A stretch of DNA of 64,000 nucleotides from Hyphomicrobiaceae bacterium (GTDB taxonomy: Bacteria; Pseudomonadota; Alphaproteobacteria; Rhizobiales; Hyphomicrobiaceae), in the NCBI GenBank assembly GCA_965215755.1, contig OZ244119.1:4302117-4366116 (forward strand), read 5' to 3'. Below, one piece after another: positions 44,436-50,637 of the stretch (position 1 is its first letter; each line of letters opens with the position of its first letter). The position numbers and the translations under genes are program-made. A model generated the notes under the pieces. It searched no databases and was not told the DNA's origin. It saw only the letters and a list, made by a program, of their open reading frames with translations.

Positions 44436-45446
44436 CTACTTATTGCGATCGGGGCCATAGTTCATTTTTCGGAACCAGGTCATGTACTCGACATAGGTAA
44501 TGGGATCATACTTCGGCGGATTGTCTGGTCCTGTGCAGGTTGGCAGACACGACATCTCATAATCTGCCCAGCAATCAAAAAAGAATGGCAAGGCATAACG
44601 TTCTTCGCCGGTTCGGTTCACGACGCGATGCGGTGTGGCCAAAAACCGATCATTGGTCCAACGGCGGAGCATGTCGCCGCCATTGACAAGAAAGGCGCCA
44701 TCGTTACTAGGCGCGTCGATCCACTTGCCACTTGGACCACGGACTGACAGGCCGGGAACCTTATTGGGAGCCAGCAAGGTCATGAAGCTCGTGTCGGTAT
44801 GAGGTGCCAAACCGAACTCGTTGTCCTCGACGACCTTCTGTGGCGGATAGTGAGACATGCGCAGCTTATACATCGGCTTGGCGAATGCTTCGTCGAAATA
44901 ACCGGCTGGCAAATCAAGCGCAAGAGCATAAAGCGGCACCAGCTTTAAAGCCAAGGATTCCAGCTGGTCCATGTATTCCAGGCAGGTTGCTCGAAACCCC
45001 GGCAGATCACCAGGCCATTTGTTAGGTGTTCGAAATGCCTTGCCGGCGAGAACATCCGGATCATTGGCATCGAGGTCTCTGGCGACAAAGAAGGCTTCAT
45101 TCACATTCGGCTTGTTGTTCTGATTGAGCTCGGAGTGGCGGGTGGTACCGCCGCGCATTGGCAAATAACCGATGTTGTATTCATTGAGTTTCAGCTTGAG
45201 CTTGTCGTCGAGCGGTTGTTCGTGAAAGCGCTTGGCAGCTGCAAAGGTATCGTCGATCAATTGCTGCGGTACGCCGTGGTTGGTGATGAAGTAGAAACCA
45301 ATGTTCTCGAAGGCATGGCGCACCGCATCAGCCGCCCTCGCTTGTGCGCCCGGCTCCTCTGCCAGGTAAGGTCCGAGATCTATGACGGGAATTTCATCGG
45401 TGGCGTCTGCACGAATTGGCGCCAGGGAAGGAGCCGGACTTGCCAT
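44436..45446 (-). CDS. Isopenicillin-N-synthase-family 2OG/Fe(II) oxygenase
   Basis: Contains IPVIDLGPY (the N-terminal DIOX_N pattern), the HTDTSFMTLL (HxD) motif, ATPHRVVN (distal His) and RYALPFF. A strong TAGGAGG SD is present. Confidence 0.85.
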   Translation of the reverse strand: MASPAPSLAPIRADATDEIPVIDLGPYLAEEPGAQARAADAVRHAFENIGFYFITNHGVPQQLIDDTFAAAKRFHEQPLDDKLKLKLNEYNIGYLPMRGGTTRHSELNQNNKPNVNEAFFVARDLDANDPDVLAGKAFRTPNKWPGDLPGFRATCLEYMDQLESLALKLVPLYALALDLPAGYFDEAFAKPMYKLRMSHYPPQKVVEDNEFGLAPHTDTSFMTLLAPNKVPGLSVRGPSGKWIDAPSNDGAFLVNGGDMLRRWTNDRFLATPHRVVNRTGEERYALPFFFDCWADYEMSCLPTCTGPDNPPKYDPITYVEYMTWFRKMNYGPDRNK

Positions 45447-45549
45447 GAGTACCTCCTATCATGCTGTTTCTGTCGAAAGCTCTTTCAGGCTTTGCGTTGC
45501 CTGCAAATATGTCGACTCGCGACCAGTCTCTCGCCCCGACACCACCAGC

Positions 45550-46833
45550 CTAACTGACCTCCTGCACCAGCCAGCCTGTCATCACAGCCGCCGCACTTAG
45601 GAAGTCATCAATCTCCATCGCTTCGTGGGGGTTGTGGCTGCCATTCTCATTGCGCACGAACAGCATTGCTGTTGGTACACCGGCCGCCGTAAATGTTGCT
45701 GCATCGTGTGAGGCGGGGCTGGCGAGTGGCATTGTTGGAACACCCAACCGGTCAGCAGCAGCCGTCAATGCCGAATAAACCTCTGGGTTTGATGGTGCCA
45801 CCGGCGCAGAAGCGCGCTGCCCCAGCGCAATCGAGACTCCACGTTTGGCTTCGATGTGCTTGACGCGCTCCAACAACTCGTTTTCAAGTTCGTCGAGATG
45901 CTCTTGATCGTAGGCGCGGACATCCAGGCTCAATGACATTTCGCCCGGAACAATTGTAAGAGCGTGCTCGTCGGGATTGGTGTGAAACCGTCCGATGGTG
46001 AAAGCCATGGGACGGCCTGCAGCATCGTTCTTCTGCCACATCTCATCGAGCGCCAATGCAAAGTCGCTTGCGGCGAGGGCTGCATCCCGACGGAACCTAC
46101 GCGGCAGACCGACATGCGCATATTCACCTTTGATGTGAATGTTAGGATAACGAAAGTTACCCGGTACGCCGGTTCCGATCGCTGCCGGAAAACCTGCTTC
46201 GATCAACTGGGGTGCTTGTTCAATGTGGATCTCAACGAACGCCCGCAGGTCTTTGGCATTCAGCCATGGTACGCCAGCTCGCACCTTGTCAACATCTGCG
46301 CCGCAGTCAGCCATGTGGTCAGCCAGCGCCCGGCCTGTATCAACGCGCGGAGCCTCAAGTGAACCATCGGGCAGCATTCCAAACGCGGTACGACTACCGA
46401 TGTATGAGACTTGAAACCACACACTTTCTTCAGCCCGGATGGCCATTGTCGTGACATCGCACGACGGCACGATGCCGAGTTTCTGCAGCACCCGCTGGGC
46501 AACAAGCCCACCGACGACCCCTGCTGCACCGTCAAAGTTGCCGCCACGCTTAACAGAGTCGAGATGTGATCCCATCATGATCCCGGGAGTGCTTTCCGTC
46601 TGCCCAGGTAGCTTCATGTAAAGATTGGCGCCATGATCGTACTGAAGCTCCAAACCCATCTCGCGTGCACGATCCTCAACGACGCGATAGCCAAATTGTT
46701 CGCCGGGCCCAAACGTATCGCGGGTGACGCCTTCGACGTCCTTACTGCCTTCGCGCAATTCATCGAAGAGGTCAGATACGAATTGCTTCTCTTGCTGGAC
46801 TGCTGAGAGAATGTCGGCAGGCGGTCGCGTCAT
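45550..46833 (-). CDS. M20-family amidohydrolase of the N-carbamoyl-amino-acid / allantoate amidohydrolase type
   Basis: MGSHLDSVKRGGNFDGAAGVV matches the GSHLDT/S-V-x-x-GG-x-FDG motif of carbamoylases. 427 aa. The SD overlaps the stop codon of the upstream asparaginase gene. Confidence 0.85.
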   Translation of the reverse strand: MTRPPADILSAVQQEKQFVSDLFDELREGSKDVEGVTRDTFGPGEQFGYRVVEDRAREMGLELQYDHGANLYMKLPGQTESTPGIMMGSHLDSVKRGGNFDGAAGVVGGLVAQRVLQKLGIVPSCDVTTMAIRAEESVWFQVSYIGSRTAFGMLPDGSLEAPRVDTGRALADHMADCGADVDKVRAGVPWLNAKDLRAFVEIHIEQAPQLIEAGFPAAIGTGVPGNFRYPNIHIKGEYAHVGLPRRFRRDAALAASDFALALDEMWQKNDAAGRPMAFTIGRFHTNPDEHALTIVPGEMSLSLDVRAYDQEHLDELENELLERVKHIEAKRGVSIALGQRASAPVAPSNPEVYSALTAAADRLGVPTMPLASPASHDAATFTAAGVPTAMLFVRNENGSHNPHEAMEIDDFLSAAAVMTGWLVQEVS

Positions 46834-46844
46834 CGGCGTTTCTC

Positions 46845-47849
46845 CTAGTATTCAGCGAAAATGCGGCTTAGTTCATTCACGTCGCTTGTCTTACTCAGGG
46901 CAACCATCAGCAAGATGCGCGCCTTTTGAGGATTGAGCGTATCAGCAGAGACAAAGCCCCGTTCTTTGAGCTTCACTCTGTTTGGCACACGACCTGAGCC
47001 GGCGCGGTTGGATTGCACAACGACAACGCCATCTTTGATGACCTTGTCGAAGGCCTGATCTTGGTGCGGAGTTAAGAGCCCCGGTGCGAAGCCTGCCGAG
47101 ACCAAGCCTTTCGCGCCGGCTGCCACGTATGCCTCAATCGCGACACCGTCGCTGCCGCCATAACAGGGAACAACGTCAACGCGCGGCAGGTCGGTTACAC
47201 CAGACATATCGAATTCGGTATCCGGCATGCGGCGGCGGAGAGGGGCACGATAGTAATGCACACCATCACCATCGACATGACCAAGCACGCCAAAGTCCGG
47301 GCTGCGGAAGGTTTGCATTCTCAATGTCGATGTTTTGGTGACATCACGAGCTGCCTGGATTTCGTCATTGAGCATCAGCAGCGCACCCATCCCACGGGAT
47401 GCAGGGTCGGCGGCGGTCCGTGCGGCGTTCAGCAAGTTAATTGCCGCATCGGTCGAAATCCCCGAAGCGGGACGTTGCGCACCGACGACCACAACCGGTT
47501 GTTCGATCTTCAATGTCAGGTTCAGGAAATAGACCGTTTCCTCGGCTGAGGCCGTTCCATGAGTCACGACAAAGCCGGCCAACGAAGGGTCATCGGCCGC
47601 GGCCTTGGTGATCGTTTTGTTGATCTCCAGCCATTCCTTGGGCCCGATGTGGGTGCTACCGACGGCCTTGAAACGAATAGGCACCGGCTCGACAACTTGT
47701 TTGACCAGGTCAAATTTTTCGATCAGTTGATCGACTTCCAGTTTGGAGCCACTGTCAGGATAGTCGACGAGATCCAATGCATCGCGTCCGATTGATGAGA
47801 TCGTCCCTCCTGTCCCAATGAATGCGACCTTTGGTTTGTTACCTGCCAT
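46845..47849 (-). CDS. Type II (AnsB-like) L-asparaginase/glutaminase homologue, no signal peptide evident
   Basis: Contains VAFIGTGGTISS (Thr nucleophile motif), DVTKTST (Lys) and a C-terminal LNPQKARILLMVAL...IFAEY very like E. coli AnsB. The second signature reads HGTAS instead of HGTDT. ATG 47849 is preceded by a GGAG. Confidence 0.85.
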   Translation of the reverse strand: MAGNKPKVAFIGTGGTISSIGRDALDLVDYPDSGSKLEVDQLIEKFDLVKQVVEPVPIRFKAVGSTHIGPKEWLEINKTITKAAADDPSLAGFVVTHGTASAEETVYFLNLTLKIEQPVVVVGAQRPASGISTDAAINLLNAARTAADPASRGMGALLMLNDEIQAARDVTKTSTLRMQTFRSPDFGVLGHVDGDGVHYYRAPLRRRMPDTEFDMSGVTDLPRVDVVPCYGGSDGVAIEAYVAAGAKGLVSAGFAPGLLTPHQDQAFDKVIKDGVVVVQSNRAGSGRVPNRVKLKERGFVSADTLNPQKARILLMVALSKTSDVNELSRIFAEY

Positions 47850-47888
47850 GTCTCTCACTCCGTGCCTATATTTTGTGTCTTGTTCGGA

Positions 47889-48893
47889 TCAGCGTTGTTC
47901 GACGTCAAACTCTGATACTTCGATTTCTATAGCTTGTAGCAGCGCCTCAACCCAAGACTCACTCAGGTGGCGTCCAATAAAGACGATACGTGTGCGGCGA
48001 TCGTCCGATGGCCACCGGTCCAGCCATGTCGGTGGATGAAAGACATGCTGGACGCCATGGATGACAGCTGGTTGCTCCGGCGTTTCGGAAATCTGCACCA
48101 GCCCCTTCAAGCGGAGCAGGTTCTCACCACAATGATCTGCCAAAGCTTCAAGAAATAGAGTCAGCGCAACGGCCGCGACCGGTCGTGACCGAATGAGGGT
48201 GAATGTCGAGATTGCCCCACTAGTATGTCCGGGAGCCGTTGCTGCAATAGTCGGCAAATCCTCAAAGTTCAGCAGCTTCGCCGCTGGCTCTTTGCCTTCA
48301 TCACTGAACATGACCGTCGGTTGCACATTGCCATGGGAGGCGGTCATGCAGTTCGCATTGGGATTAAGGCTCCTGACAGATGCTACGAGTGCGCCGTGCT
48401 CCTCGCTCAGTAGATCCATCTTCGTCAGGAGTAATTGATCTGCTATCGCTATCTGTCTGGCTGCTTCCGGCTCCCGGGAAATCGTCTGCGCCCCATTGAC
48501 GGAATCGACCACGGTGACAACGCGGTCCAATTGGAAGTTGCAGGCGGCTGTTTCATCGACCATTAAGCCCTGCAGGATCGGGATGGGATCGGCCAGCCCA
48601 CTCGTTTCAATCATAACCCTTTTGAAGGGGGTAATGGCTCCGGTCTGTCGGCGCGTCCAGAGATCGTCCAGGGTCTCGACCAGGTCGCCGCGCATCTTGC
48701 AGCACAGGCACCCCGTCTTTAATGTCACGAGATCTTCGTCGCTCGTCTCGATGAGTTCATGGTCCAGGCCAACTTCACCGAACTCATTGATGATCACCGC
48801 TGTGTCACCGTATTCGGGATCAGCCAGAACCTTCTTAAGGATCGTTGTCTTCCCGCTCCCGAGGTAGCCGGTTATGACCGATACCGGGATCAT
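47889..48893 (-). CDS. COG0523-family (CobW/YjiA-like) metallochaperone GTPase
   Basis: The Walker A is ITGYLGSGKTT, the metal-binding CxCC is GCLCCKM, the motif LLTKMDL is NKxD-like, and a CobW_C-like tail is present. The ATG overlaps the TGA of the upstream 107-aa ORF. Confidence 0.9.
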   Translation of the reverse strand: MIPVSVITGYLGSGKTTILKKVLADPEYGDTAVIINEFGEVGLDHELIETSDEDLVTLKTGCLCCKMRGDLVETLDDLWTRRQTGAITPFKRVMIETSGLADPIPILQGLMVDETAACNFQLDRVVTVVDSVNGAQTISREPEAARQIAIADQLLLTKMDLLSEEHGALVASVRSLNPNANCMTASHGNVQPTVMFSDEGKEPAAKLLNFEDLPTIAATAPGHTSGAISTFTLIRSRPVAAVALTLFLEALADHCGENLLRLKGLVQISETPEQPAVIHGVQHVFHPPTWLDRWPSDDRRTRIVFIGRHLSESWVEALLQAIEIEVSEFDVEQR

Positions 48894-49213
48894 GACGGCA
48901 AGCCTGGCAGCGGAGCGATTGTCAATTGATAGGGTTGATAACCAGGTGCCAGGTTCTGCCGAACGATGCGCAGAACGCCAACGACGGATGCTGCTGTTCG
49001 TTTTCGTCCGCTTGTTTCAACGACCCACCGAAACGGCATGCCTTTCGGTGCGCGGTCTATTGTCAGAACCACGTCACCTTCTGCGCGAATGATGATGTGA
49101 TCGTCAATGCCATCGCGATGCACGCTGTGTGCGCGAGACCACATCGTGAGTGAGGAACCGATAAGCTTCTCCAGTGCATCCACCAACGCATCACTCATTG
49201 TGCCGGGGCTCAT
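48890..49213 (-). CDS. Orphan 107-aa protein, translationally coupled on both sides
   Basis: ATGA overlaps occur at 49210-49213 (with the dihydropyrimidinase stop) and 48890-48893 (with the COG0523 start). I recognise no motif. The protein has no Cys and three His. It is supported as coding mainly by its operon geometry. Confidence 0.5.
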   Translation of the reverse strand: MSPGTMSDALVDALEKLIGSSLTMWSRAHSVHRDGIDDHIIIRAEGDVVLTIDRAPKGMPFRWVVETSGRKRTAASVVGVLRIVRQNLAPGYQPYQLTIAPLPGLPS

Positions 49214-50637
49214 AGTGCTGGACCTGCAATAATATCGGCAGGGATTTTCCGCTTCAGATGTTGACCGTCATTGGTTTCTCCGAAGAATTCCTTGCCGTCC
49301 ACCATGACCTTACCGCGCATAATCGTTGTTTCGGGCCATGCGAAGATATCATGCCCTTCCCAGGGCGTGTAATCGGTTTCATGTAGCTTGGACGCCGTGA
49401 TCTTTCCGCGACGGTTTGGGTCCAGAATTGTTATGTCGGCATCACTGCCGGCCGCAATTGCGCCTTTGCGCGGGTAGAGCCCCATTACCTTTGCTGCGTT
49501 GGTCGAAACCAGATCAACATATTGGCTCAGCGAATACTGTCGGCGATGAACCATTTCGGTGTACATCACTGCCAACCGCGGTTCGACGCCGGAATTCCCT
49601 CCCGTCGTATCATCGATCCGATTGCCGAGAGTTTTTTCTTTCAATGTGCAGCAAAGTTCGTCCGTCGCGACGCAGTTGATATCACCCGTCAATGTTCCGT
49701 CCCACAGCGCTTTTTGATCCTCGGCGGACTTGAGTGAGGGATAGGTGTGATAGATCTGACCGTTCGGCCGCTTATAGTCTTCAGCATTGTAAAGCATGTA
49801 TTGATGTAGGGTCTCTCCGTAGATCGGCATGCCTTTCGCACGTGCTTCAGAGATGGCCTTGACGCCAGTCGCAGCACTCACATGCATCATGTAGAGAGCA
49901 GTCCCTGGCACATTCTCTGCAAGCCTCAGGATTCGACGGAAACTGAGATCTTCCGACAGCGCATTGTGGGCCTCATTCAGATATTCGAATCCAACACGAC
50001 CTTCGCGAATTAACTTATCGTACATGTGCATGACGATGTCGTGGTCTTCGGCATGGATCACACCAAGTCCACCTTCATCGGCAAGCACCTGAAAGGCTTC
50101 CCAGATGTCTCCGAAATCGATCATGCGCCCCGTACGACCGGGGAGAATGTTGGTTGTGAATATCTTCAGTGTCGGATGACCGGCCTGGATGGCCTCGGCG
50201 AGCTGTCCTTTGAAGGTATGCGGTGGCTCACTATGGAGCATGATGTGATAGGCGTAATCGCAATAGCTACGACCTTTGAAGTCCTTATCTCGCGCCTCAA
50301 TGGCTTCAAGTGCCGTGTGCTCTTCGCGCCAATACGCGAAATCAATCAACGTGGTTGTGCCACCGAACAAAGCGGCCTTGCCGACCTGATCGGGACCGGC
50401 CGTGATCATTGTCTCCCCGTCCGGTTTAATCCAGGGATGATGCATGTGGACGTGGGGATCGATACCGCCAGGCATGACAATCTTACCGGAAGCGTCCACG
50501 GTCCGCGTTGCAGCCGTTTCATCGAGAGTGCCCGGAGCGGCGACCGCGGCGATCGTCTCGCCTTTGACCGCAACGTCGAAGTTTCCAACCCCTTGCGGGG
50601 TCACGACCTCGCCACCTCGAATAATCAAATCCAGCAT
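49210..50637 (-). CDS. Dihydropyrimidinase / D-hydantoinase (cyclic amidohydrolase)
   Basis: Contains GGIDPHVHMH (HxH metal ligands), TLKIFTT (carboxylated-Lys context), VIHAEDHD and ATDELCCT-type late motifs. 475 aa. A strong GAGGAGGAGG SD is present. Confidence 0.9.
   Translation of the reverse strand: MLDLIIRGGEVVTPQGVGNFDVAVKGETIAAVAAPGTLDETAATRTVDASGKIVMPGGIDPHVHMHHPWIKPDGETMITAGPDQVGKAALFGGTTTLIDFAYWREEHTALEAIEARDKDFKGRSYCDYAYHIMLHSEPPHTFKGQLAEAIQAGHPTLKIFTTNILPGRTGRMIDFGDIWEAFQVLADEGGLGVIHAEDHDIVMHMYDKLIREGRVGFEYLNEAHNALSEDLSFRRILRLAENVPGTALYMMHVSAATGVKAISEARAKGMPIYGETLHQYMLYNAEDYKRPNGQIYHTYPSLKSAEDQKALWDGTLTGDINCVATDELCCTLKEKTLGNRIDDTTGGNSGVEPRLAVMYTEMVHRRQYSLSQYVDLVSTNAAKVMGLYPRKGAIAAGSDADITILDPNRRGKITASKLHETDYTPWEGHDIFAWPETTIMRGKVMVDGKEFFGETNDGQHLKRKIPADIIAGPAL

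What the first reader, a model, noticed from the sequence alone, without database searches (positions are those of the whole stretch)
48890..49213. Orphan 107-aa ORF doubly translationally coupled between a binuclear-metal amidohydrolase and a COG0523 GTPase
Seen: the ORF's ATG overlaps the TGA of the dihydropyrimidinase (ATGA, 49210-49213), and its TGA overlaps the ATG of the COG0523 gene (ATGA, 48890-48893). The translation (MSPGTMSDALVDALEKLIGSSLTMWSRAHSVHRDGIDDHIIIRAEGDVVLTIDRAPKGMPFRWVVETSGRKRTAASVVGVLRIVRQNL...) carries no motif I recognise and no Cys.

Inference: double coupling argues for stoichiometric co-synthesis with both neighbours. That is what one expects of an adaptor or assembly factor bridging a metallochaperone and its client. 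It is loosely analogous to the small activator proteins encoded next to nitrile hydratases.
Basis: partly seen in the sequence, partly recalled or inferred. Interest (0 to 1): 0.62.

Follow-up and report, generated by a model that had tools for sequence, protein, structure and literature searches.

The report
New small partner of metallochaperone GTPase
The 107-residue ORF is a real, conserved protein of an undescribed family, always wedged between a hydantoinase-type metal enzyme and a metal-inserting GTPase and sometimes fused to that GTPase, so it most likely docks the GTPase onto the enzyme it loads with metal.

Summary
A 107-aa ORF (48890-49213, minus strand) shares ATGA with the stop of a 475-aa hydantoinase-like amidohydrolase and with the start of a COG0523 GTPase.

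It is a real gene, not a chance ORF. Relatives fall into at least 65 clusters at 50% identity. Its C-terminal half is conserved, and the pairs not saturated at silent sites give dN/dS 0.18-0.26. AlphaFold2 predicts a confident fold (pLDDT 84.6).

It matches no Pfam or NCBIfam family and no PDB structure.

In 22 distinct lineages the three genes lie together in 20. The overlap with the GTPase start is kept in 19 of 19 unfused neighbours, and the overlap with the amidohydrolase stop in 16 of 21. Three lineages chosen through the amidohydrolase alone all carry it.

Five full-length proteins in two clades have this domain fused, through a long linker, to the N-terminus of the COG0523 GTPase. Where an inserted gene separates the GTPase, the small gene stays with the amidohydrolase.

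The family is basic and has no conserved Cys, His, Asp or Glu, so it is unlikely to bind metal.

Best reading: it is a client-docking adaptor of a dedicated metal-centre assembly module, working much like the urease UreD/UreF-UreG system. This rests on comparative genomics only; nothing biochemical has been tested.

The parts
49210..50637 (-). 475-aa cyclic amidohydrolase of the hydantoinase/dihydropyrimidinase type, the proposed client
   Evidence: It hits Pfam Amidohydro_1 and Amidohydro_3. TIGR02033 scores 336 bits, below the 393 cut-off. Its best PDB relative is Thermus D-hydantoinase 1gkp (E 8.5e-70), and the HxH, carbamyl-Lys (LKIF), H, H and D ligand positions all align. It is 66-96% identical in the first 21 related loci.
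48890..49213 (-). 107-aa small protein (P0001), founding example here of an undescribed ~100-aa family; proposed adaptor
   Evidence: No Pfam or NCBIfam match for it or for 58 relatives. It has 20 and 65 homologue clusters in two searches. The AF2 model has pLDDT 84.6, with a helix, five strands and a helix. No PDB or BFVD fold match. Fusions to COG0523 exist.
47889..48893 (-). 334-aa COG0523 G3E GTPase (metallochaperone type)
   Evidence: It hits Pfam cobW (2e-45) and CobW_C (3e-22). The sequence shows Walker A GYLGSGKTT, CxCC as GCLCCK, and RxKG as LRLKG. It scores below the cut-offs for CobW, ZigA and YjiA-type equivalogs.
49210..49213 (-). ATGA overlap: amidohydrolase stop / small-gene start
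   Evidence: An RTGA overlap is kept in 16 of 21 lineages.
48890..48893 (-). ATGA overlap: small-gene stop / COG0523 start
   Evidence: An RTGA overlap is kept in 19 of 19 unfused adjacent lineages.
44436..47858 (-). Variable downstream cargo of the same operon: asparaginase-like (46845-47858), M20 carbamoylase-type hydrolase (45550-46833), 2OG-Fe(II) oxygenase (44436-45446)
   Evidence: These genes are present in some related loci and replaced by others elsewhere, so they are not part of the conserved three-gene core.

Best explanation
The small protein is the third component of a conserved three-gene module: a hydantoinase-type amidohydrolase, the ~100-aa protein, and a COG0523 GTPase.

It most likely acts as a client-specific docking or co-chaperone subunit. 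It would bind the COG0523 GTPase stably, which is why some lineages fuse it to the GTPase N-terminus. It would also bind the apo-amidohydrolase, which is why the gene stays with that enzyme when the module is split. This would position the metal-carrying CxCC site of the GTPase for GTP-dependent loading of the carbamyl-lysine binuclear metal centre.

It carries no metal itself. Functionally it would resemble UreD/UreF in urease maturation, or the N-terminal client-docking segment of eukaryotic ZNG1.

Shown: it is a real conserved gene, the synteny and couplings are conserved, fusions exist, no metal ligands are conserved, and the fold is new. Inferred: binding to either partner, the direction of metal transfer, the identity of the metal, and the need for GTP.
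For: 1. It is a real protein.
- 20 homologues at 48-95% identity and 65 clusters at 50% identity.
- A conserved motif set: L17, S21, W25, P60-F-R-W63, R70, R72, S76, L81, R82, R85.
- dN/dS is 0.26 (L002 vs L005) and 0.18 (L007 vs L008). The C-terminal half has mean pN 0.31, against 0.54 for the N-terminal half.
- The AF2 model has pLDDT 84.6 and pTM 0.74.

2. Linkage.
- The three genes lie together in 20 of 22 distinct lineages.
- Three of three lineages sampled through the amidohydrolase alone contain a family member (HMM E 1e-34 to 1e-39) overlapping the enzyme's stop codon.
- Genes outside the three vary from locus to locus.

3. Association with the GTPase.
- Five full-length proteins (P0063, P0089, P0092, P0132, P0206), plus the fragment P0073, carry the domain N-terminal to COG0523 behind a 30-50-aa linker. 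They fall into two clades 40-63% identical to each other (family HMM E 1e-15 to 1e-26).
- In L004 the fused gene still follows the amidohydrolase.

4. Association with the enzyme.
- In L024 an MFS gene is inserted between the small gene and cobW, and the small gene keeps its GTGA overlap with the amidohydrolase.
- In L013 it follows the amidohydrolase with no adjacent cobW.

5. It is not a metal carrier. No Cys, His, Asp or Glu is conserved; the family is 0.6% Cys and 1.5% His. Its median pI is 10.2, against acidic partners at pI 5.5 and 4.8.

6. Its rate of change fits an accessory factor rather than a core subunit. It is 34-63% identical across loci where the enzyme is 66-96% and the GTPase 48-86% identical.
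Against: - No binding, expression or activity data exist. No identifiable RNA run holds the locus.
- The AF2 model of the natural fusion gives a confident N-domain but a disordered linker. The tool returns no coordinates or PAE, so no interface could be read.
- L016/L017 show the small gene and the GTPase with no amidohydrolase in the 386 nt available upstream. The enzyme is therefore not always adjacent.
- Canonical hydantoinases are not known to need any accessory protein (my own knowledge), so a need for assisted metallation is itself an inference.
- dN/dS against the closest relative is 0.52, but from only 10 substitutions.
Confidence: 0.55

Rival explanations
1. It is a permanent small structural or regulatory subunit of the amidohydrolase, comparable to the small gamma and beta subunits of urease. 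It would be needed for stability, oligomerisation or substrate access, and would have no role in metal delivery.
For: It directly follows the enzyme gene and overlaps it in 16 of 21 lineages. It stays with the enzyme in L024 and L013 when the GTPase is not adjacent. It is a basic protein next to an acidic enzyme.
Against: It evolves far faster than the enzyme: 34-63% against 66-96% identity. It is fused to the GTPase in two clades, and no fusion to the amidohydrolase appeared among the 65 clusters of the exhaustive search. L016/L017 carry it with the GTPase and no adjacent enzyme.
Confidence: 0.17
2. It regulates the GTPase cycle only, as a GAP, GEF, GDI or dimerisation factor for the COG0523 protein, and does not contact the client. 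Its invariant arginines could reach the nucleotide.
For: Fusions to the GTPase. The overlap with the GTPase start is kept in 19 of 19 unfused neighbours. Six nearly invariant Arg residues.
Against: COG0523 C-terminal domains carry their own RxKG arginine finger ('self-gapping'; PMC13001444), and the window's GTPase has it as LRLKG. Most COG0523 proteins are encoded without this small gene: 7444 close hits to the GTPase part against 65 small-protein clusters. The small gene is found only beside this one amidohydrolase subfamily, which argues for client specificity.
Confidence: 0.15
3. The product does not matter. The ORF would be a translated spacer whose only role is to pass ribosomes from the amidohydrolase gene to the GTPase gene, or it would be a mis-called ORF.
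For: Both junctions are 4-nt overlaps. The N-terminal half evolves quickly, with mean pN 0.54.
Against: The amino-acid motifs are strongly conserved and indels stay in frame across 59 sequences. The predicted fold is confident. The domain is maintained inside fusion proteins. dN/dS is 0.18-0.26 in the unsaturated pairs.
Confidence: 0.03

Closest known systems
Urease maturation system: UreG (a G3E GTPase) with the accessory proteins UreD(H)/UreF and UreE
   Same: The client belongs to the amidohydrolase superfamily and has a binuclear metal centre bridged by a carbamylated lysine. A G3E P-loop GTPase is encoded beside it, and non-catalytic accessory proteins without metal sites (UreD/UreF) dock the GTPase on the apo-enzyme (my own knowledge and PMC9164220). 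The ligand set HxH, Kcx, H, H, D is present in the window's enzyme.
   Different: The GTPase here is a COG0523 protein, not UreG. The small protein is about 100 aa and has no sequence or fold similarity to UreD, UreE or UreF. There is one accessory protein rather than three. The metal is unknown.
   Same: A COG0523 GTPase is encoded beside one dedicated metalloenzyme client. It is one of the two bacterial COG0523 proteins with a known client, the other being CobW (PMC11672702). P14K-type activators are small proteins encoded beside their enzyme.
   Different: Nha3 binds the alpha subunit directly, and no third protein is described. P14K-type activators resemble the nitrile hydratase beta subunit and work without a GTPase. 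P0001 and its relatives match no Pfam family, including the nitrile hydratase families.
Eukaryotic ZNG1 (COG0523) with its N-terminal client-docking segment for METAP1
   Same: In both, an element at the N-terminus of a COG0523 GTPase is the candidate specificity or docking element. That is the position the small domain occupies in the fused forms. The ZNG1 side rests on my own knowledge.
   Different: The ZNG1 element is a short linear motif, not a folded 100-aa domain. The client is a different enzyme class, and there is no homology.
Haas et al. 2009 COG0523 subgroup 7, which co-localises with a 'cyclic imide hydrolase', amidases and polyamine transporters
   Same: A COG0523 gene lies in a cyclic-amide catabolic cluster (PMC2770081 supplement).
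   Different: It is a different cluster. Neither P0001 nor a close homologue of the enzyme or the GTPase occurs in the plasmid collection (P0001 has no hit; the best identities are 44% and 47%). I checked whole-collection identities only and did not confirm that the plasmid of the listed R. leguminosarum member is in that collection. No small partner is described there.

Membership tests
COG0523 G3E GTPase (the downstream neighbour, P0003) | cobW nucleotide-binding domain plus CobW_C domain | tested here: met
   PF02492 at 2e-45 and PF07683 at 3.3e-22.
COG0523 G3E GTPase (the downstream neighbour, P0003) | Walker A motif, CxCC metal motif and the RxKG arginine finger of the C-terminal domain | tested here: met
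   GYLGSGKTT, GCLCCK and LRLKG were read in the translation. Motif definitions come from PMC9164220 and PMC13001444.
Named COG0523 subfamilies (CobW, ZigA, YjiA-type) | Score above the NCBIfam equivalog cut-off | tested here: not met
   PRK11537 scores 186 against a cut-off of 361, CobW 132 against 332, and ZigA 116 against 600.
Cyclic amidohydrolase, hydantoinase/dihydropyrimidinase type (the upstream neighbour, P0002) | Ligands of the binuclear centre: HxH, carbamylated Lys, His, His, Asp | tested here: met
   In the alignment to 1gkp, DPHVHMH, LKIF, HAED, MHVS and ATDE align with the template's ligand positions. Assigning these motifs as the metal ligands rests on my own knowledge of the family.
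D-hydantoinase/dihydropyrimidinase equivalog (TIGR02033) | Score above the curated cut-off | tested here: not met
   336 bits against a cut-off of 393, and about 33% identity to annotated hydA genes. It is a distinct subfamily whose substrate is unknown.
Nitrile hydratase activator P14K / NHase beta-like (for the small protein) | Sequence similarity to the nitrile hydratase beta family | tested here: not met
   No Pfam match at E <= 1 for P0001. Across 59 members at E <= 0.1 only nine unrelated families are hit, each by a single member.
Urease accessory proteins UreD/UreE/UreF (for the small protein) | Sequence or fold similarity | tested here: not met
   No Pfam or NCBIfam hit. Foldseek against the PDB gives best E 0.35 and TM <= 0.43, with no urease accessory protein among the 50 best matches listed. 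A profile search of PDB sequences gives 0 hits.
T3SS-chaperone / YbjN-like peptide-binding chaperones (TY-Chap; for the small protein) | Profile match and fold match | tested here: not met
   One of 59 members hits PF22552 at E 0.084, which is chance level. I recognised no T3SS chaperone among the 50 best Foldseek matches listed. The helix, five-strand, helix order is only loosely reminiscent.
The new ~100-aa family itself | Motifs LLxxSLxxW, RAPxxxPFRW and GRxRxAxSxxGxLRxxR, and a position between this amidohydrolase subfamily and a COG0523 gene | tested here: met
   Alignments A1 and A2. The window ORF scores 1.3e-37 against the family HMM, which was built from A2 with P0001 as one of its rows. 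Synteny.

The most novel reading that the evidence does not exclude
A non-urease member of the amidohydrolase superfamily has its own GTP-driven assembly line for its carbamyl-lysine binuclear metal centre. That assembly line would be built from a COG0523 GTPase and a previously unrecognised ~100-aa adaptor with a new fold. This would give the COG0523 field a third bacterial client with a defined docking factor, and would show that assisted metallation of binuclear amidohydrolases is not peculiar to urease.
Probability: 0.35. Interest if true: 0.8.

Novelty: new variant of a known kind. Interest (0 to 1): 0.62.

Why it matters
COG0523 GTPases occur in all kingdoms, but among bacterial members a client is known only for CobW and Nha3 (PMC11672702). 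How any COG0523 protein recognises its client is largely unknown.

This module offers an obvious client gene, a dedicated GTPase and a candidate recognition subunit, all translationally coupled and in some lineages fused. That makes a compact three-protein system that can be expressed in E. coli and tested directly.

The module is abundant in environmental Alphaproteobacteria. More than 120 clusters of the enzyme are at least 76% identical to the window's.

The parallel with urease maturation, which has the same superfamily and the same carbamyl-lysine binuclear centre, raises a further possibility: GTP-dependent centre assembly may be more widespread among amidohydrolases than thought.

It also gives a name and a testable role to a protein family that databases now list as hypothetical.

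Tried and rejected
- **Family libraries.** Pfam and NCBIfam searches of P0001 and of 59 family members gave no consistent hit.
- **PDB sequences.** A profile search gave 0 hits.
- **Fold searches.** Foldseek of the AF2 model against the PDB (best E 0.35) and BFVD (best E 5.7e-3, all uncharacterised) gave no usable fold assignment.
- **Fusion model.** Foldseek of the fusion model recovered only YjiA and HypB for the GTPase part.
- **Domain interface.** AF2 of the natural fusion P0063 was meant to reveal the interface. The tool returns no coordinates or PAE, and the linker is disordered, so nothing could be concluded.
- **P0082.** This 814-aa repeat protein from the representative search is a false positive; it does not match the family HMM.
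- **P0093.** It looks like a frameshifted read-through rather than a true fusion, so it was not counted.
- **Plasmid collection.** It holds no homologue of the small protein. The best amidohydrolase hit (44%, Arthrobacter) is split into two frames and has no partner genes.
- **Collection scans.** The scans with A1 used one narrow peptide pattern and returned only 6 and 4 loci.
- **Expression.** The RNA-labelled runs of the organism hold none of the locus, and the runs that do hold it are of unknown kind.
- **Promoter and terminator scan.** Nothing above the shuffled background.
- **GAP idea.** The small protein's arginines acting as a GAP finger was considered and down-weighted, because the COG0523 C-terminal domain has its own RxKG finger.
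- **Whole-genome search.** The window holds a single copy.
Full report
**1. The observation**

On the minus strand, a 107-codon ORF runs from 49213 to 48890. Its ATG shares ATGA with the stop of the upstream 475-aa gene (49210-50637). Its TGA shares ATGA with the start of the downstream 334-aa gene (47889-48893). The product has no Cys and three His.

- The upstream product is a cyclic amidohydrolase. It hits Amidohydro_1 and Amidohydro_3, and TIGR02033 scores 336 bits against a 393 cut-off. Its best solved relative is Thermus D-hydantoinase 1gkp (E 8.5e-70). The HxH, carbamyl-lysine, His, His and Asp positions are all aligned.
- The downstream product is a COG0523 G3E GTPase. It has the cobW and CobW_C domains, Walker A GYLGSGKTT, CxCC as GCLCCK, and the C-terminal RxKG motif as LRLKG.

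Further downstream, in the same orientation, lie an asparaginase-like gene, an M20 carbamoylase-type hydrolase and a 2OG-Fe(II) oxygenase.

**2. Is it a gene?**

Yes.
- A word-indexed search found 20 homologues of 85-111 aa at 48-95% identity.
- An exhaustive phmmer search of 1.84 billion representative proteins found 65 clusters (E <= 1e-3), nearly all about 100 aa.
- A 59-sequence alignment shows a variable N-terminal half and a strongly conserved C-terminal half. L17 and W25 are invariant. S21, P60-F61-R62-W63, R70, R72, S76, L81, R82 and R85 are nearly invariant.
- Pairs not saturated at silent sites give dN/dS of 0.26 (L002 vs L005) and 0.18 (L007 vs L008). The mean non-synonymous difference is 0.31 in the C-terminal half and 0.54 in the N-terminal half.
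- Against the closest relative (L022) the ratio is 0.52, but from only ten substitutions. The same comparison gives 0.025 for the amidohydrolase and 0.28 for the GTPase.
- AlphaFold2 with the 21-sequence alignment gives mean pLDDT 84.6 and pTM 0.74. The order is helix (3-24), five strands, helix (77-88), then a conserved but unstructured tail.

In L022 the start codon is GTG within GTGA, and the internal Met6 of the window protein is Arg. The overlapped start is therefore the functional one. The window and L022 carry a five-codon insertion after it, relative to most orthologues.

**3. What family?**

None that is described.
- Neither P0001 nor any of 58 relatives gives a consistent Pfam or NCBIfam hit.
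- A family profile finds nothing among PDB sequences.
- Foldseek finds no significant structural neighbour in the PDB (best E 0.35, TM <= 0.43) or BFVD.
- The only names attached by sources are 'hypothetical protein'.

**4. Context in relatives**

I collected loci in three ways: by exact-protein look-up, by two collection scans, and, as an unbiased control, through three amidohydrolase homologues chosen without regard to what follows them. The control lineages were P0231, P0293 and P0284. This gave 22 distinct lineages, counting the window.

- The order amidohydrolase, small gene, COG0523 is complete in 20 of 22.
- All three control lineages have a family member (HMM E 1e-34 to 1e-39) overlapping the amidohydrolase stop.
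- The overlap between the small gene's stop and the GTPase start (RTGA) is present in 19 of 19 lineages where the two are adjacent and separate.
- The overlap between the amidohydrolase stop and the small gene's start is present in 16 of 21. Three others have 9-10-nt gaps, L004 has 23 nt, and L010 has a degraded N-terminus.
- Genes outside the three differ from locus to locus. They include asparaginase plus M20 hydrolase, MmgE/PrpD, PhyH, CoA-transferase, and a second amidohydrolase with an Asp/Glu racemase and a CN-hydrolase.

The conserved unit is therefore the three genes, not the pathway.

Named relatives are mostly Hyphomicrobiaceae and other Alphaproteobacteria MAGs.

Relative to the window, the first 21 loci give 66-96% identity for the enzyme, 48-86% for the GTPase and 34-63% for the small protein.

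**5. Informative exceptions**

a) *Fusions.* P0063 (481 aa, locus L004) has the small domain at residues 5-96, a linker of about 40 aa, then a complete COG0523. The gene directly follows the amidohydrolase.
- P0089, and the fragment P0073, belong to the same clade.
- P0092, P0132 and P0206 form a second, more divergent clade with different linkers.
- All match the family HMM at E 1e-15 to 1e-26.
- P0093 looks like a frameshifted read-through and was not counted.
- No fusion to the amidohydrolase appeared among the 65 clusters.

b) *Splits.*
- In L024 an MFS transporter gene on the opposite strand sits between the small gene and cobW. The small gene keeps its overlap with the amidohydrolase.
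- In L013 the small gene follows the amidohydrolase and the next gene is convergent and unrelated.
- In L016/L017 the small gene, cobW and an asparaginase-like gene are present, with no amidohydrolase in the 386 nt available upstream.

Taken together, the small gene is tied to both neighbours. It is fused only to the GTPase, and it is retained by the enzyme when the GTPase gene moves.

**6. Mechanism**

The family has no conserved Cys, His, Asp or Glu. Its composition is 0.6% Cys, 1.5% His and 11.7% Arg, with a median pI of 10.2. The two partners are acidic, at pI 5.5 and 4.8. It is therefore unlikely to carry metal.

The most economical reading is a docking or co-chaperone subunit that links the COG0523 GTPase to the apo-amidohydrolase. 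Candidate contact surfaces, by inference only, are the exposed PFRW loop, the Arg-rich second helix, and the conserved tail that is disordered in isolation.

The COG0523 C-terminal domain has its own arginine finger (RxKG, 'self-gapping'; PMC13001444), and the window's GTPase has it. A pure GAP role for the small protein is therefore less necessary.

The closest functional parallel is urease. Urease belongs to the same superfamily and has the same carbamyl-lysine-bridged binuclear centre. It uses a G3E GTPase (UreG) and metal-free adaptor proteins (UreD/UreF) (my own knowledge and PMC9164220). There is no homology between the small protein and those adaptors.

I put this reading at 0.55. The rivals are a permanent small subunit of the enzyme (0.17), a GTPase-cycle regulator without client contact (0.15), and a mere translated spacer (0.03). 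The remaining 0.10 is left for roles not considered here.

**7. What is known**

Reviews state that bacterial COG0523 clients are established only for CobW and Nha3 (PMC11672702), and that most COG0523 clusters are uncharacterised (PMC9164220).

Full-text searches for COG0523 together with hydantoinase or dihydropyrimidinase found no paper.

Haas et al. 2009 list a subgroup 7 next to a 'cyclic imide hydrolase'. This is a different cluster. Neither the small protein nor close homologues of the enzyme or GTPase occur in the plasmid collection, though I did not confirm that the collection holds the listed R. leguminosarum plasmid.

Earlier notes of this scan report the same three genes in other genomes, and one follow-up reached the same reading. 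These are AI notes and not independent evidence. I had found the fusions and the synteny before reading them.

**8. Limits**

- There is no expression or protein evidence. RNA-labelled runs of the organism hold none of the locus, and the runs that hold it are of unknown kind.
- The AF2 model of the fusion has a confident N-domain (pLDDT about 90-95), a disordered linker (residues 92-125) and pTM 0.69. It could not be inspected for a domain interface.

**9. Verdict**

The small protein founds an undescribed family with no detectable fold relative, inside a widespread, compact and testable module of enzyme, adaptor and metallochaperone. I class it as a new variant of a known kind (G3E-GTPase metallocentre assembly with an accessory adaptor), with interest 0.62.

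Noticed in passing
window 49196-49213 (minus strand); L022 8971-8990; L013 2509-2530: The window and its closest relative carry a five-codon insertion (S-P-G-T-M/R) right after the overlapped start, relative to most orthologues, which begin M-S-D. L013 shows a similar short tandem duplication (GTGAGCCCCGATGTTGTGAGC) at the same junction. The junction seems prone to small duplications that keep the RTGA overlap.
   Followed up: partly
L024 6425-9236: An MFS transporter gene on the opposite strand is inserted between the small gene and cobW. The small gene now ends ...ATGTGAGATCCCGCGG, which looks like a remnant of the usual ATGATCCCGG junction with cobW.
   Followed up: partly
L010 5923-6237: The N-terminal part of the small ORF is degraded here: there is no start at the usual place, and a 51-nt gap follows the amidohydrolase. 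The C-terminal half and the overlap with cobW are intact. This could be a frameshift, an assembly error or a decaying copy.
   Followed up: no
window 49210-50637: This amidohydrolase subfamily is unusually conserved. More than 120 clusters are at least 76% identical, nearly all exactly 474-476 aa, yet only about 33% identical to annotated hydA. It reads TDELCC after the Asp ligand, where 1gkp reads TDHCPF. The substrate is unknown.
   Followed up: partly
L025 7909-11411: In this lineage the three genes are followed by a second amidohydrolase, an Asp/Glu (hydantoin-type) racemase and a CN-hydrolase (carbamoylase-type). That is a classical hydantoin-utilisation gene set, and it supports a cyclic ureide or hydantoin substrate for the module's enzyme.
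   Followed up: no
L023 (Arthrobacter sp. StoSoilB13 plasmid NZ_AP024649.1, 928501-929920): The only plasmid homologue above 40% identity (44%) is split over two reading frames and has neither the small gene nor cobW beside it. The record is essentially unannotated.
   Followed up: partly
window 49030-49618, run X25: A 589-nt contig of a run of unknown kind (fragmented contigs, uneven depth) spans the junction between the amidohydrolase and the small gene. If that run is RNA it would show co-transcription, but its kind could not be established.
   Followed up: no
PMC2770081 supplement; earlier scan note e1-3106376: Other COG0523 subgroups also sit beside cyclic-amide hydrolases of a different fold (cyclic imide hydrolase, PuuE-like). 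The layout of client, small coupled ORF and COG0523 may recur with unrelated small proteins.
   Followed up: no
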